Source: Candidatus Latescibacterota bacterium
GTDB taxonomy: Bacteria; Latescibacterota; UBA2968; UBA8231
Direction: 5' to 3'
DNA length: 64,000 nt
Assembly (NCBI GenBank): GCA_965248265.1
Contig: CBDFJF010000002.1
Span: 192,001 to 256,000 of the forward strand
Below are positions 60,940 to 63,505 of this stretch, piece by piece (position 1 is the first letter of the stretch; each line of letters opens with the position of its first letter). Below the pieces are notes generated by a model. The model did not search any database and was not told the origin of the DNA. It worked only from the letters and a program-made list of their open reading frames with translations. Both the position numbers and the translations under genes were made by a program.

Positions 60940-61215
60940 ATGGCGACCACAAGACACCCATACAGGGTTGGCATCATCGGCGTCGGACGCAAAGGTACAC
61001 AACACGCCCAGGCCTTCGCCGAGAACGGGCGCGCCGTGCTGGAGCTAGCCATTGCCCTGCGCGAGTCAGAACGCCGTGGCCTCACGCCCGTGAAGGTGCC
61101 GCTTGCCGACCGCAGCCTGCAGATATTGCCAGCTGCCAGCCGCATGTACTGGAAGAAGGAGGTCCATGGCGAGGAGTGGTACGCCGAACAGATGGCGAGC
61201 CAGAAGCGCGATTAG
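60940..61215 (+). pseudogene. Gfo/Idh/MocA oxidoreductase with a large in-frame internal deletion
   Basis: N-terminal YRVGIIGVGRKGTQHAQAF is joined directly to C-terminal ENGRAVLELAIALRESERRG...PLADRSL. Confidence 0.8.
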
Positions 61216-61224
61216 GAGCGGCTT

Positions 61225-62181
61225 CTACTGCGGCACGGTCAGTCGCGACATTGCTGAAGCAGGCACGGCCGTCCGAAACAGTCTTTCCGCCAGGCTGCGG
61301 CCGTTTCCTGGAACCGGGTGATCTGTCGTCGTTACCCCGTTCATCTGCAGAATGGACTGCGAGATTTCCGCGACACACCCAATGGTCTGCCGAGAGAGAG
61401 TGGAGAGACGGAGCGGCTTCCGCTTTGCCGTTGGGGAATACCTCTGCGAGTCGGAGGGGATGTAGCCATGGTTGTGGAGCGGTTTCCCCAGGAACTGGCC
61501 GACGATTCTCTGCATCTTGCCGACCGCCTCTTCGGACAGGTCCGGATCATCGATGCCGCTGGAGATGATGCCGATCCGTGTGTCACCATTCACCTGGAGA
61601 ACCGTCTTGATCAGTCCGTAGGCATCAACCATGTCGTTCCTACGCCAGGGTGTAACGACGACGACATCACGACTGGCTCTGATGACAGCTCTCGCGTGGC
61701 TGCTGAGCGCAGGACTGACGATGGCGAGGACGATATCGGCTTCCTCTTCCGCGGTCGTGAACCATCTCGCTAGTGAAGCCCGTTTGGTCGGGTCGAGATC
61801 GTCGAGGCCCGAGACGTCCACGTCGATGGTGACCAGCCTGATACCGTCAGCGCATTCGGCGGTGGGAGGCTCGTTACCACTTCCCGCGATGACGCCAAGG
61901 ATGGAGCCGTGCGCGGTGCCACTCGTGCGCATCCACAACCGCGGGTGGCTGAAATCGGCATCGAGGAGAAGCACTCGCTTGCCGCGCCTGGCAAACGCCA
62001 GGGCCAGGTTGAGAGTCAGCGATCCACGCTCTCTCACCTTGCCGTCGGCGGCAATGCAGATGACGGGTGGAGGAGCCGGAACATCGTTGCGAAAACCGGT
62101 CTCAGCGTTCGTGGCCGCGGGCGAGAGGAACAGGTGAGAGAAATCCTCCAGCCCTCGTCCCAGTCTGCGATCTCGTACCAT
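61225..62181 (-). CDS. MinD/FlhG-like protein with degenerate Walker motifs and an N-terminal ParB-like LGRGL peptide
   Basis: MVRDRRLGRGLEDF; NLALAFARRGKRVLLLDAD; VVVVTP...DAYGLIK; GYIPSD; no GKT/S. Confidence 0.8.
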   Translation of the reverse strand: MVRDRRLGRGLEDFSHLFLSPAATNAETGFRNDVPAPPPVICIAADGKVRERGSLTLNLALAFARRGKRVLLLDADFSHPRLWMRTSGTAHGSILGVIAGSGNEPPTAECADGIRLVTIDVDVSGLDDLDPTKRASLARWFTTAEEEADIVLAIVSPALSSHARAVIRASRDVVVVTPWRRNDMVDAYGLIKTVLQVNGDTRIGIISSGIDDPDLSEEAVGKMQRIVGQFLGKPLHNHGYIPSDSQRYSPTAKRKPLRLSTLSRQTIGCVAEISQSILQMNGVTTTDHPVPGNGRSLAERLFRTAVPASAMSRLTVPQ

Positions 62182-62189
62182 GGCGATCG

Positions 62190-63260
62190 TCAGTGGCCGA
62201 AAACCGTCACCAGGGAATTCCCCACGCCAATATCGTCGGTTGTCACCGCATCATTGCCGGGATCGGTTATCCATTTTCCGTCGACGATGAACTTGTATTC
62301 GTGTGTCCCCGACTCGAGGTGGAGGGAGCCCTGCCAGGTTTCGTGGTCGTGACGCTGCAGCATCACATCCTCCACGGGCTGCCAGTTGCTGAAGTCGCCG
62401 GCGATCTGCACCACTGTCGCTGCGGCGTCGCAATAGGTAAAGAGGATCTCGTTGCCAATCTGCCTGGGGCCCAGCCGGCGGGTTGTGCGGATGACATCCG
62501 ATTTCGTCTCTTCCGCGACGACCTCGGCCGCCAGGTGCATGTAATCTTCCGCCCCCGCGCTCTGCTTCCTGTATTCCTGAATGGGCAAGCCGAATCCGGC
62601 GGCCTCTCTCAATTTCACGGTGGCACGGATCACGGTGCTGTACCTGTTTTCCCCGAAGTGCTGGTCGATGTTCGTCAGAACCTCGCGGGCAAACAGGGTG
62701 TGTGCATCACAGATGGTGGCCAGTGCCCGCGACCTGATCTCATGTTCGTACTGGACCTTCAGGATTTCGATCATCTCGAGCAGCCGCGCGACCCCCTGTA
62801 AAGCGAAGACGCTCATGTCGATGGGTATGAGCGCCTCCGAACATGCTCTGAGCGCGTTGAAGGTGAGAAAACCCAGGCTGGGTGGGCAGTCGACGACGAC
62901 GTAGTCGTACTCCCGCTGCAGGTTCAGCAGAGCGCCGAGGAGGACGCTCTCGCGCTCCATCCTTCCTGCCAGCTGCTGCTCTACAGCACTGAGGACTAAC
63001 TGCGAGGGGGCGAGGTCGAGGCGGTCGCCGATTTTCACGATCACGTCGTCGAGACCTCGTCCATCCTCGACGAAGATGTCGTATATGCTGCTCTCCAGAT
63101 CCTCGACTTTCACATTCAAACCGATCGAGGCATGCGACTGAGGATCCAGATCGATCAGCAACACTTTTCTGTTGCTCGAGGCGAGGCTGGCTGAGAGGTT
63201 GATCGCGGTTGTCGTCTTGCCACAACCGCCCTTCTGATTGGCGATGGCTATCGTGCGCAT
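62190..63260 (-). CDS. ParA/Soj-family ATPase fused to a C-terminal CBM48/AMPK-beta glycogen-binding domain
   Basis: NQKGGCGKTT, DLDPQ, VVDCPPSLG; C-terminal VQIAGDFSNW...GTHEYKFIVDGKWITDP...GNS. Confidence 0.92.
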   Translation of the reverse strand: MRTIAIANQKGGCGKTTTAINLSASLASSNRKVLLIDLDPQSHASIGLNVKVEDLESSIYDIFVEDGRGLDDVIVKIGDRLDLAPSQLVLSAVEQQLAGRMERESVLLGALLNLQREYDYVVVDCPPSLGFLTFNALRACSEALIPIDMSVFALQGVARLLEMIEILKVQYEHEIRSRALATICDAHTLFAREVLTNIDQHFGENRYSTVIRATVKLREAAGFGLPIQEYRKQSAGAEDYMHLAAEVVAEETKSDVIRTTRRLGPRQIGNEILFTYCDAAATVVQIAGDFSNWQPVEDVMLQRHDHETWQGSLHLESGTHEYKFIVDGKWITDPGNDAVTTDDIGVGNSLVTVFGH

Positions 63261-63505
63261 GATTCCGCTCCCTTGTTCTGGCGATCCGCAACGCCGGTAG
63301 AAATCGACGCTGCAGATGCATCGACGCAGTTTTTCCAGACGAATGTCTGGCTGGTACGGAAACCGGGGAGGGCAATACGGGGAATGCGAACAGCAAAGGG
63401 GGATTTGGTGTTCCTACAAAAATACTGGTGTTCGGTTTGGGTCGCTACTGGTTTCTTTCTCGGCTCGCCAGGTCAAGGTCTTCGGCGATCCGAAACAGAA
63501 CCCCA

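What the first reader, a model, noticed from the sequence alone, without database searches (positions are those of the whole stretch)
61225..63260. ParA-CBM48 fusion plus ATPase-dead MinD with a ParB-like activator peptide: candidate glycogen-granule positioning system
Seen: a ParA with intact KGGCGKT and Walker B carries a C-terminal CBM48. That domain keeps the residues equivalent to AMPK-beta W100, K126, W133 and N150 (SNW, EYKF, GKW, GNS). Eight bp downstream is a FlhG/MinD-like gene with the P-loop replaced (AADGKVRERGSL) and no Walker B Asp (DIVLAIVSP); it starts RRLGRGLEDF. No parB, min or flagellar genes are adjacent. Established: the ParB/Spo0J N-terminal LGRGL motif stimulates ParA ATPase, and ParA/MinD ATPases position cargo with a partner (McdAB, PomXYZ, ParC/ParP). 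Inference: this is a two-protein system that positions or segregates glycogen granules, or couples carbon storage to the cell cycle. I know of no characterised example.
Basis: partly seen in the sequence, partly recalled or inferred. Interest (0 to 1): 0.85.

Follow-up and report, generated by a model that had tools for sequence, protein, structure and literature searches.

The report
ParA–CBM48 ATPase with pseudo-FlhG activator
Two adjacent genes encode a chromosome-partition-type ATPase fused to a glycogen-binding module and a dead FlhG-like partner with a ParB-like activating peptide; the pair is conserved and already catalogued, but this genome has no glycogen enzymes.

Summary
Gene A (62190-63260, minus strand) is a Soj-type ParA with an intact deviant Walker A, joined to an AMPK-beta-type CBM48 whose glucan-binding residues never vary. 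Gene B (61225-62181) has a FlhG/MinD fold with a dead P-loop and an invariant N-terminal LGRGLEDFSHLFL motif.

A stands directly upstream of B in 34 of 34 related loci that have enough upstream sequence. In Thermodesulfobacteriota the module also holds a dead restriction-endonuclease-fold protein and a free CBM48 protein. There it often lies beside a GH57 branching-enzyme cluster, among housekeeping genes.

Two things lower the finding:
- It is not new. A preprint of October 2026 (bioRxiv 10.64898/2026.10.19.760177) catalogues this "CBM-containing system" and reads it as immunity. This scan has also met it in at least 33 other genomes.
- The window's genome (92% complete, 2 contigs) has no GH13, GH57, GlgA, GlgC or phosphorylase genes and lacks the two extra module genes. 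Only 2 of 168 genomes of its phylum carry the fusion. A glycogen-granule role is therefore not supported for this organism.

Best reading: a horizontally acquired, reduced copy of an untested glucan-linked ParA/activator module. What may be new is that B looks like a FlhG whose enhancer helix was swapped for a ParB-like peptide.

The parts
62190..63260 (-). Gene A: ParA/Soj-type ATPase fused to a C-terminal CBM48 (356 aa)
   Evidence: ORF; Pfam AAA_31 at E 7e-52 plus AMPK1_CBM at E 6e-14. Of the 120 best homologues listed, 119 carry the same CBM Pfam families.
62505..63260 (-). ATPase domain of A (about aa 1-252) with the deviant Walker A KGGCGKT, D37/D39 and Walker B D124
   Evidence: PDB phmmer: ParA 8RAY at E 1e-48 and T. 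thermophilus Soj 1WCV at E 1.5e-42. The catalytic residues are invariant in 30 of 30 members. The ParB-pocket equivalents Y60, L129, G130, F131 and F134 and the DNA-binding equivalent K216 are kept. The Soj-R189 equivalent is His187 here but Arg in 26 of 30 members.
62439..62504 (-). Variable linker of A (about aa 253-274)
   Evidence: Mean identity to the window is 27% here, against 62% in the ATPase domain and 45% in the CBM.
62202..62438 (-). CBM48 / AMPK-beta-like glucan-binding module of A (about aa 275-353)
   Evidence: Pfam AMPK1_CBM scores 52.4 bits against a cut-off of 26.8. The module aligns to AMPK beta CBM structures. W293, W309, Y322, W330 and N348 are invariant in 30 of 30 members.
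61225..62181 (-). Gene B: FlhG/MinD-fold pseudo-ATPase (318 aa)
   Evidence: ORF. The 36 full-length orthologues listed (P0122-P0157, 38-62% identity) come. The model matches FlhG 4RZ2 at TM 0.80.
62122..62169 (-). N-terminal ParB-like motif of B (aa 5-20, RRLGRGLEDFSHLFLS), in a segment predicted to be disordered
   Evidence: The motif is kept in 23-24 of 24 orthologues. It is also kept in distant forms: L035 (MGRGLEDFSHLFLS) and G007 (KKLGRGLEDISHLFLS). Residues 1-33 have pLDDT below 50. In open frames of 150 aa or more, no other LG[RK]GL in the genome lies at a gene's N-terminus (my reading of the list).
62017..62052 (-). Degenerate P-loop of B (aa 44-55, AADGKVRERGSL)
   Evidence: This stretch aligns with SGKGGTGKS of active relatives. 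The lysine position is Glu51 in 24 of 24 orthologues.
61276..61296 (-). C-terminal S-L-A-E-R-L-F motif of B (aa 296-302), possibly a membrane-targeting helix
   Evidence: L301 is kept in 24 of 24 orthologues and F302 in 21 of 24. The motif aligns with the C-terminal NFFQKLF and SFLSRLL of FlhG-like proteins. That FlhG has a C-terminal membrane-targeting sequence comes from passages of PMC12826062. Membrane binding by B is inferred only.
63261..63505 (-). Intergenic region upstream of A, the presumed promoter region
   Evidence: This is a 245-bp gap after an oligopeptide ABC ATPase gene. The consensus scan found no sigma-70-like site, so the transcription start is unknown.

Best explanation
The pair is the two-gene core of the ParA-CBM system.

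Shown:
- A is a Soj-type ATPase with every catalytic residue intact.
- A keeps the surface pocket that binds ParB's N-terminal peptide in M. xanthus ParA, and one of the two basic residues used for non-specific DNA binding.
- A is permanently joined, through a variable linker, to a CBM48 whose AMPK-beta-type glucan-contact residues are invariant.
- B is derived from FlhG. It keeps the fold and a C-terminal motif like a membrane-targeting sequence, but has lost nucleotide binding.
- Where FlhG carries its DQAxxLR enhancer helix, B carries an invariant ParB-like motif on a disordered N-terminus.

Inferred:
- The ATP-bound A dimer binds DNA and, through its CBM, an alpha-glucan particle.
- B's peptide docks at the A dimer interface, triggers ATP hydrolysis and releases A. 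The module would then tether, space or hand over glucan particles, much as ParB or McdB do for their ParA.
- In this genome the copy came by horizontal transfer, kept only A and B, and sits in a cell without glycogen enzymes. Its ligand or cargo here is unknown, and it may have been put to another use.
For: - Pair conservation: A is upstream of B in 34 of 34 loci with at least 300 bp of upstream sequence. The REase-fold gene follows in 25 of 27 loci and the free CBM48 gene in 19 of 20. A GH57 branching enzyme follows in 8 of 14 loci with enough downstream sequence, and was seen in 10 loci in all, some of them near-identical.
- L026 neighbours: GH57+BE_C, DUF4912, a second GH57 and a GT4/GT5-like transferase.
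- Housekeeping setting: cmk, rpsA, sppA, mgtE and recO lie downstream (L031) and FAA hydrolase and FBPase upstream (L029). FAA hydrolase is found in 15 other loci.
- A is present in 10 of 11 genomes of one Thermodesulfobacteriota order.
- The CBM contact residues are invariant in 30 of 30 members.
- B's motif is invariant. It matches the ParB motif, whose L11, R13, L15 and L18 are required for ParA binding (PMC12462528 passages).
- A keeps Y60 (30 of 30), L129/G130/L131/F134 and K/R216 (30 of 30).
- FlhG is a precedent for an N-terminal activator peptide on this scaffold (PMC12826062 passages). B's fold matches FlhG.
- All six other carriers tested have glucan enzymes: G168-G171 have GlgB-size CBM48 frames, G172 has four GH57 matches, and G007 has 616- and 728-aa CBM48 frames.
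- Purifying selection in the window's lineage: B is 302/318 identical to a strain whose DNA differs at 73 of 2301 bases. Among the listed differences, 13 codons change synonymously and 14 non-synonymously.
Against: - No experiment exists on any member.
- The window's genome has no GH13, GH57, CBM48 enzyme, GlgA, phosphorylase, or GlgC above cut-off, by Pfam/NCBIfam scans and by tblastn with E. coli GlgP/A/C/X/B. By contrast, 65 of 75 genomes of its family have a CBM48 match, the listed ones mostly in branching-enzyme-sized frames.
- The REase-fold and free CBM48 genes are absent from it.
- The window's clade has His or Gln at the Soj-R189 equivalent, and Gln at the equivalent of the ParB-R13-contacting E117. 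DNA binding or activation may therefore be altered.
- The distribution is sporadic: 2 of 168 genomes in its phylum.
- In this topology the ATPase itself holds the cargo. No characterised ParA system works that way.
- The CBM, B and the REase-fold protein evolve faster than the ATPase domain, which is the preprint's argument for immunity.
Confidence: 0.45

Rival explanations
1. An immune (conflict) system, as proposed by the 2026 preprint. The CBM would sense a carbohydrate that appears or disappears on infection. A would then multimerise to block the invader, with the inactive ParA and inactive REase acting as extra sensors.
For: - The preprint's section 'CBM-containing system' (passages read) places the clade (ConB5) among immune ParA branches and cites rapid divergence of the CBM.
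- Here the distribution is sporadic: 2 of 168 genomes in the window's phylum.
- The CBM, B and C evolve faster than the ATPase domain. Comparing L026 with L025, identities are 52, 61 and 60% against 79%.
- A copy persists in a genome without glycogen enzymes.
- The C model resembles NucS and also the Shedu nuclease domain.
Against: - The carbohydrate-contact residues of the CBM are invariant in 30 of 30 members, which is not the pattern of an arms race.
- The module keeps its synteny among housekeeping genes and beside a GH57 glucan cluster.
- It is present in 10 of 11 genomes of one order.
- No defence genes lie in the window's neighbourhood.
- PADLOC gives only generic P-loop matches for A, none for B or the free CBM48 protein, and weak matches (best E 1.2e-5) to two candidate families for the REase-fold protein.
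- No effector domain is present.
Confidence: 0.2
2. A regulator or scaffold of alpha-glucan metabolism rather than a positioning machine. A would be an ATP-dependent switch that reports or gates access to glycogen, as AMPK-beta's CBM does. B would recruit it to the membrane or to enzymes.
For: - The module is adjacent to branching enzyme, a GH57 hydrolase and a glycosyltransferase in 10 loci.
- FBPase lies nearby in L029.
- B has a conserved motif like a membrane-targeting sequence.
- FlhG itself acts as a partner-switching regulator (PMC11407121 passages).
Against: - A keeps the Soj-like DNA-binding K/R216, and most members keep R187. That fits nucleoid binding better than enzyme regulation.
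- No enzyme domain is fused to any module protein.
- The explanation gives no role to the REase-fold partner.
Confidence: 0.15
3. In this genome the pair is a functionless passenger: a leftover of horizontal transfer that lost its partners and its substrate.
For: - The REase-fold gene, the free CBM48 gene and all glucan enzymes are absent.
- The window's A is 58-64% identical to Thermodesulfobacteriota A but only 39-40% to the genome's own ParA paralogues.
- A decayed oxidoreductase-like ORF abuts B.
- The window's clade carries substitutions at two functional positions of A.
Against: - Both frames are intact and keep every family-invariant residue.
- Relatives at 79-80% (A) and 59-61% (B) identity keep the pair on the same contigs, judged by matching contig lengths of 112,060 and 636,191.
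- Between two strains, B shows about as many synonymous as non-synonymous codon changes (13 against 14 in the listed subset). Without constraint about 1 to 3 would be expected.
Confidence: 0.12

Closest known systems
'CBM-containing system' (ParA-CBM, clade ConB5) of bioRxiv 10.64898/2026.10.19.760177 (October 2026, computational)
   Same: ParA with a C-terminal AMPK1_CBM, sporadic across phyla. The preprint's second variant adds a fast-evolving inactive ParA and an inactive REase. That variant matches A, B and the 188-aa protein found here in relatives.
   Different: - The window has only A and B; the REase-fold gene is missing.
- The main text does not contain 'LGRGL' (0 occurrences), so the ParB-like peptide, the FlhG ancestry of B and the GH57/housekeeping context may be additions. 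Its supplements could not be read.
- The preprint reads the system as immunity. The context found here points to glucan housekeeping.
Chromosomal ParABS (Soj/ParA with Spo0J/ParB), e.g. M. xanthus ParA-ParB (PMC12462528)
   Same: A's ATPase domain is closest to these proteins (8RAY at E 1e-48, 1WCV at E 1.5e-42). B's N-terminus fits the ParB ParA-binding motif L-G-R/K-G-L-x-x-hydrophobic, and A keeps the pocket residues. The genome's own ParB starts MAKKQVLGKGIHALI.
   Different: B has no ParB/Srx CTPase domain and no HTH, and no parS is implied. A carries its own cargo-binding domain. The genome has a separate canonical parAB pair.
FlhG (MinD-like ATPase) acting on FlhF
   Same: B has the FlhG fold (4RZ2, TM 0.80). 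The layout is the same: an N-terminal activator peptide, an ATPase-fold body and a C-terminal amphipathic motif. In both cases the peptide acts on a SIMIBI-class NTPase partner.
   Different: B lacks the Walker A lysine and the Walker B aspartate. DQAxxLR is replaced by LGRGLEDFSHLFL. The partner is a ParA, not FlhF, and no flagellar genes are adjacent.
McdA-McdB (carboxysome positioning) and PomXYZ
   Same: A ParA-type ATPase works with a dedicated non-ParB partner that activates it through a short N-terminal peptide, to place a non-DNA cargo (general knowledge; abstracts of PMC12139897 and PMC13170346 seen in the listing).
   Different: In those systems the partner, not the ATPase, sits on the cargo. 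Neither partner has a ParA fold. Their function has been shown by experiment, which is not the case here.
AMPK beta-subunit carbohydrate-binding module (CBM48)
   Same: Sequence match at E 3e-10 with aligned W, K, W and N contact residues.
   Different: This is a bacterial protein, fused to an ATPase rather than to a kinase scaffold. Its ligand has not been tested, and no glycogen pathway exists in this genome.

Membership tests
ParA/Soj (deviant Walker A ATPases) - gene A | Deviant Walker A KGGxxGK[ST] with the signature lysine, Motif 2 aspartates and the Walker B aspartate | tested here: met
   K10, K15, D37, D39 and D124 are each present in 30 of 30 aligned members, including the window. 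AAA_31 scores E 7e-52.
ParA/Soj (deviant Walker A ATPases) - gene A | Non-specific DNA binding through conserved basic residues (M. xanthus R238; B. subtilis Soj R189, the latter recalled) | tested here: inconclusive
   The R238 equivalent is K216, and is K or R in 30 of 30 members. The R189 equivalent is His187 in the window but Arg in 26 of 30 members. The numbering offset was mapped by hand from the 8RAY alignment. DNA binding was not measured.
ParA/Soj (deviant Walker A ATPases) - gene A | Equivalog-level match to a named ParA, MinD or RepA family | tested here: not met
   The best NCBIfam hit, ParA_partition, scores 104.9 bits against a cut-off of 180. All other families are also below cut-off.
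CBM48 / AMPK1_CBM - C-terminus of A | Profile match above the curated cut-off | tested here: met
   PF16561 scores 52.4 bits (cut-off 26.8) and PF02922 scores 29.1 bits (cut-off 22.4).
CBM48 / AMPK1_CBM - C-terminus of A | Aromatic and polar glucan-contact residues | tested here: met
   W293, K323, W330 and N348 align to the W, K, W and N of the AMPK beta CBM. They are invariant, or K/R, in 30 of 30 members.
CBM48 / AMPK1_CBM - C-terminus of A | Binds alpha-1,4/1,6-glucan | not testable with these tools
   This needs pull-down or ITC with glycogen or cyclodextrin.
ConB5 'CBM-containing system', variant 2 (preprint) | ParA fused to a C-terminal AMPK1_CBM | tested here: met
   preprint passage.
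ConB5 'CBM-containing system', variant 2 (preprint) | An adjacent second ParA-fold protein predicted to be inactive | tested here: met
   Gene B: FlhG fold, with Glu at the Walker A lysine position in 24 of 24 orthologues.
ConB5 'CBM-containing system', variant 2 (preprint) | An adjacent inactive REase-fold protein | tested here: not met
   tblastn with the L026 188-aa protein finds nothing in the window's genome. The protein is present in 25 of 27 related loci, and its model matches NucS 2VLD at E 3e-5.
FlhG/MinD - gene B | MinD/FlhG fold | tested here: met
   Foldseek: 4RZ2 at E 3e-14, 1HYQ and 5J1J. The profile search gives 1498 proteins at E<=1e-30, most of them matched from about profile position 30 onward.
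FlhG/MinD - gene B | Functional Walker A and Walker B (ATP-dependent dimer) | tested here: not met
   AADGKVRERGSL and DIVLAIVSP. Glu51 is present in 24 of 24 orthologues and Asp at the Walker B position in 0 of 24.
FlhG/MinD - gene B | N-terminal DQAxxLR enhancer helix (FlhG) | tested here: not met
   The helix is replaced by LGRGLEDFSHLFL. The canonical relative P0210 has DQAERLR.
FlhG/MinD - gene B | C-terminal amphipathic membrane-targeting helix | tested here: inconclusive
   S-[LF]-A-E-R-L-F is conserved and aligns with the FlhG-like C-termini. In the model it is only a short helix of low confidence.
ParB - gene B | N-terminal ParA-binding motif | tested here: met
   L7, R9, L11 and F14 correspond to L11, R13, L15 and L18 of M. 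xanthus ParB. This is a sequence pattern only.
ParB - gene B | ParB/Srx CTPase domain, HTH and parS binding | tested here: not met
   B has no such Pfam match, and its fold is FlhG-like.
ParA-based cargo-positioning system (McdAB-like) | The partner stimulates the ATPase, and the cargo is mispositioned on deletion | not testable with these tools
   This needs biochemistry and imaging.

The most novel reading that the evidence does not exclude
The module would be the first ParA machine whose cargo is a polysaccharide.
- The ATPase grips alpha-glucan particles directly through its own CBM48 while bound to the nucleoid.
- A FlhG-derived pseudo-ATPase imitates ParB with a grafted N-terminal peptide. 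It may work from the membrane through a retained targeting helix, firing the ATPase to release or space the particles.
- In the window's lineage the two-gene core would have been transferred into a glycogen-free cell and put to use on a different, unknown ligand.
Probability: 0.25. Interest if true: 0.8.

Novelty: new member of a known kind. Interest (0 to 1): 0.5.

Why it matters
It is not known how bacteria place or share out storage polysaccharide. A 2024 review of ParA/MinD cargos does not contain the word glycogen (0 occurrences). A ParA that binds glucan directly, switched by a dead FlhG carrying a ParB-like peptide, would add a new cargo class and a new way of building an activator.

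The competing immunity reading from the 2026 preprint makes the system a clean test case, because a few simple assays can tell the two readings apart. This window adds a natural experiment: the core pair is kept under selection in a genome that has no glycogen enzymes.

Tried and rejected
- Complex prediction. A(1-262) x2 with ATP and Mg, plus full-length B, gave no verdict (score 0.00, mark 0.32; controls not run). It says nothing for or against binding.
- Expression. No RNA holder is listed for the stretch, so nothing can be said about expression.
- Promoter and terminator scan. No promoter-like site was found, and the 3 terminator-like sites are within the chance range.
- Word-based and phylum searches with B. 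The 51 other genomes (of 168) that matched at E<=1e-10 gave 21-29% identity, matched from about residue 15-53 onward. These look like generic MinD/FlhG. That search missed the real B of G007, which is cut by a contig end and was found by reading L036.
- PADLOC. No specific defence family matched.
- Literature. 'ParA-like ATPase' + glycogen + 'carbohydrate-binding module' gave 0 papers. 'LGRGL' + ParB gave 0 papers. ParA + CBM48 + glycogen, and McdA + glycogen + ParA, returned unrelated papers because 'para' matches many words.
- A full dN/dS could not be computed. Only 39 of the 73 differences of the X5 contig were listed, 36 of them inside the two genes.
- I considered B as a true MinD or FlhG and rejected it: the catalytic motifs are dead and no min or flagellar genes are present. 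I considered B as a ParB and rejected it: it has no ParB domain.
Full report
**What is there**

On the minus strand, gene A (62190-63260, 356 aa) is followed after 8 bases by gene B (61225-62181, 318 aa).

Gene A:
- It matches AAA_31 over residues 1-175 (E 7e-52) and AMPK1_CBM over 280-353 (52.4 bits, cut-off 26.8). CBM_48 is also above its cut-off.
- No NCBIfam equivalog reaches its cut-off; the best, ParA_partition, scores 104.9 bits against 180.

Gene B:
- It gives only sub-threshold hits to AAA_31 and CbiA.

Neighbours:
- They are a GH4 hydrolase, two UxuA-like genes, a zinc alcohol dehydrogenase, a response regulator, a radical SAM protein and an oligopeptide ABC ATPase.
- No parB, min, flagellar, glg or defence genes are adjacent.

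**Gene A in detail**

- Family: among the 120 best homologues listed, 119 carry the CBM Pfam families at full length.
- Catalytic residues: in an alignment of 30 members, K10, K15, D37, D39 and D124 are invariant.
- Closest structures: the ATPase domain is closest to chromosomal ParA/Soj structures, 8RAY (E 1e-48) and Thermus Soj 1WCV (E 1.5e-42).
- Mapping onto M. xanthus ParA: I used that alignment and the numbering in passages of PMC12462528. The offset was worked out by hand from the D60A site in the chain.
  - A keeps Y60 (Mx Y81; 30 of 30 members).
  - It keeps L129, G130, F/L131 and F134 (Mx L150, G151, L152, L155).
  - It keeps K216 (Mx R238, whose R238E change abolishes DNA binding; K or R in 30 of 30).
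- Departures in the window's clade:
  - Position 187, which aligns with the Arg of the Soj 'DGRT' stretch (Soj R189, recalled), is Arg in 26 of 30 members. It is His in the window and one close relative, and Gln in another.
  - Position 96 (Mx E117) is Glu in 21 of 30 members but Gln in the window.
- CBM: it aligns to AMPK beta CBM structures at E 3e-10. W293, W309, Y322, W330 and N348 are invariant, and position 323 is K or R.
- Rates: mean identity to the window is 62% in the ATPase domain, 27% in the linker and 45% in the CBM. The CBM thus drifts faster overall, but its contact residues do not change.

**Gene B in detail**

- Orthologues: the word-based search found 49 proteins. Of these, P0122-P0157 are orthologues at 38-62% identity.
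- Conserved features across 24 orthologues:
  - The N-terminal L-G-R-G-L-E-D-F-S-H-L-F-L is kept in 23-24 of 24.
  - The Walker A lysine position is Glu in 24 of 24.
  - No Asp occupies the Walker B position (0 of 24).
- Fold: the AlphaFold model (pLDDT 74, residues 1-33 disordered) matches FlhG 4RZ2 (E 3e-14, TM 0.80), MinD 1HYQ and FleN.
- Wider family: a profile search of 1.84 billion representatives gave 1498 proteins at E<=1e-30, most of them matched from about profile position 30 onward.
- Hits that match from position 1 fall into two groups:
  - further dead-P-loop forms;
  - proteins with an LGRGL-type N-terminus and an intact SGKGGTGKS, namely P0204, P0206, P0213, P0229, P0251, P0256 and P0293. 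Some of these are labelled Acidobacteriota.
- A canonical relative, P0210, starts with DQAERLR. FlhG's DQAxxLR enhancer helix stimulates FlhF, and FlhG has a C-terminal membrane-targeting sequence (passages of PMC12826062).
- In a joint alignment, B's conserved C-terminal S-[LF]-A-E-R-L-F lines up with the FlhG-like C-termini.
- B therefore looks like a FlhG that lost nucleotide binding and swapped its enhancer helix for a ParB-like peptide.
- The ParB motif is defined experimentally: L11, R13, L15, L18 and I19 of M. xanthus ParB, and a 20-residue peptide suffices to stimulate ParA when DNA is present (passages). B matches at L7, R9, L11 and F14.
- The genome's own ParB begins MAKKQVLGKGIHALI. 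In open frames of 150 aa or more, no other LG[RK]GL in the genome lies at a gene's N-terminus, as I read the list.

**Conservation of the pair**

Scans with the B alignment returned 12 loci from species genomes (mostly Thermodesulfobacteriota MAGs) and 31 from metagenomes. Several of the 43 loci are near-identical to each other (L026, L049 and L050; L027 and L048), so the counts below are not independent. tblastn across the 43 loci gave:

| Feature | Loci with it | Loci with enough sequence |
|---|---|---|
| A directly upstream of B | 34 | 34 (at least 300 bp upstream) |
| 188-aa protein after B | 25 | 27 |
| ~98-aa free CBM48 protein on the opposite strand | 19 | 20 |
| GH57 branching enzyme next | 8 | 14 (10 loci in all show it) |

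- The 188-aa protein models as a restriction-endonuclease fold (NucS 2VLD, E 3e-5).
- In L026 the cluster continues with DUF4912, a second GH57 and a GT4/GT5-like transferase.
- In the other clade the module sits among housekeeping genes: cmk, rpsA, sppA, mgtE and recO downstream in L031, and FAA hydrolase and FBPase upstream in L029. FAA hydrolase recurs in 15 other loci.
- In the order that holds G168, 10 of 11 genomes have full-length A.
- Even the distant L035 form (B body about 21-27% identical) starts MGRGLEDFSHLFLS.
- G007, the only other carrier in the window's phylum, has KKLGRGLEDISHLFLS right after A.

**What is odd about this window**

- No glucan genes. The genome (7.32 Mb, 2 contigs, 92% complete) has no GH57, no Glyco_transf_5, no phosphorylase, no GH13 alpha-amylase domain and no GlgC above cut-off. 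Its only CBM48 or AMPK1_CBM match is gene A.
- Independent check. tblastn with E. coli K-12 GlgP, GlgA, GlgC, GlgX and GlgB and with the L026 cluster proteins found only generic GT4 and nucleotidyl-transferase matches. It found no REase-fold or free CBM48 gene.
- Contrast with relatives. In its own family, 65 of 75 genomes have a CBM48 match, the listed ones mostly in branching-enzyme-sized frames. All six other carriers tested have glucan enzymes.
- Rarity. Only 2 of 168 genomes of its phylum have the fusion.
- Likely origin. The window's A is 58-64% identical to Thermodesulfobacteriota A but 39-40% identical to its own ParA paralogues. Horizontal acquisition is the simplest reading.
- The pair is still maintained.
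  - Relatives at 79-80% (A) and 59-61% (B) identity appear to keep both genes on one contig, judged by equal contig lengths.
  - A strain contig covers 61100-63400 with 73 differences and no gaps.
  - B is 302/318 identical to that strain's protein.
  - Among the differences that were listed (36 inside the two genes), B has 13 synonymous and 14 non-synonymous codon changes, and A has 4 and 3. This is a partial count. It is well below the roughly 1:3 ratio expected without constraint.

**Prior description**

- A bioRxiv preprint of 22 October 2026 (10.64898/2026.10.19.760177; passages read) describes a 'CBM-containing system' (clade ConB5).
  - It is a ParA with a C-terminal AMPK1_CBM, sporadic across phyla.
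  - It is sometimes joined by a fast-evolving inactive ParA and an inactive REase.
  - The preprint reads it as an immune carbohydrate sensor.
  - Its main text has no 'LGRGL'.
- A 2024 review of ParA/MinD cargos has no occurrence of 'glycogen'.
- This scan has met the same system before: 33 findings in at least 33 genomes. The later ones cite the preprint, and one notes carriers that cannot make glycogen.

**Weighing the readings**

- For the family, several facts favour a glucan-linked housekeeping role over an arms-race sensor: invariant CBM contact residues, order-wide presence, fixed synteny among housekeeping genes, and the GH57 neighbourhood.
- The features cited for immunity are real: sporadic spread, and faster evolution of the CBM, B and C. 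They are also what one expects of non-enzymatic partners and of an accessory trait.
- For this organism, a glycogen-granule cargo is not supported.
- I put 0.45 on the glucan-linked ParA/activator model, with B acting through its ParB-like peptide. I put 0.20 on immunity, 0.15 on metabolic regulation, and about 0.12 on a functionless passenger in this genome.
- All mechanistic steps are inferred: DNA binding, glucan binding, stimulation by the peptide and membrane targeting.

Noticed in passing
window 60940-61215 (+): This 91-aa ORF reads like a Gfo/Idh/MocA-type oxidoreductase that kept its N-terminal Rossmann start and its C-terminal end but lost the middle. It has no Pfam hit at E<=0.001. 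It abuts the 3' end of gene B and may mark a rearrangement where the pair was inserted.
   Followed up: no
P0204, P0206, P0213, P0229, P0251, P0256, P0293: These FlhG-like proteins carry an LGRGL-type N-terminal motif and also an intact Walker A (SGKGGTGKS). Some are labelled Acidobacteriota. Their partners are unknown. P0229 and the A homologue P0039 share a longest-contig length of 4773, which hints that an active form also pairs with a ParA-CBM.
   Followed up: partly
whole genome G000: The genome has no GH13, GH57, GT5 (GlgA), GT35 (phosphorylase) or GlgC, although 65 of 75 genomes of the same family have a CBM48 match, mostly in branching-enzyme-sized frames. Four small genera listed beside it (g3-g6) lack one as well.
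   Followed up: yes
L002 (G000:C2:324687-325472) and L003 (G000:C1:1859305-1860057): The genome has a canonical parA-parB pair (L003; ParB N-terminus MAKKQVLGKGIHALI). It also has an orphan 253-aa ParA without a ParB, just downstream of a 297-aa ORF that reads to me like a sigma-70-family factor (no family search run) (L002).
   Followed up: partly
same-phylum genomes, e.g. G150, G130, G141: Many genomes of the window's family encode small stand-alone CBM48 frames of about 90-130 aa, apart from their branching enzymes. These resemble the free CBM48 gene of the Thermodesulfobacteriota module.
   Followed up: no
L033:10001-10862, L061:97-1024, L029:11741-12002: In these loci, B (L033, L061) or the free CBM48 gene (L029) is matched in two or three pieces. 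This suggests frameshifts or assembly errors in some carriers.
   Followed up: no
window 62423 (run X7): One low-depth contig (2.17x) of a related strain has 10 extra bases just inside the CBM-coding part of A. That would shift the frame. It is either an assembly error or a broken copy in that strain.
   Followed up: no
genomes G168-G178: Carriers in that order also have a second ParA, 51-55% identical to A's ATPase domain and without a CBM. This is closer than the window genome's own ParAs (39-40%). It may be the lineage from which the fusion arose.
   Followed up: no
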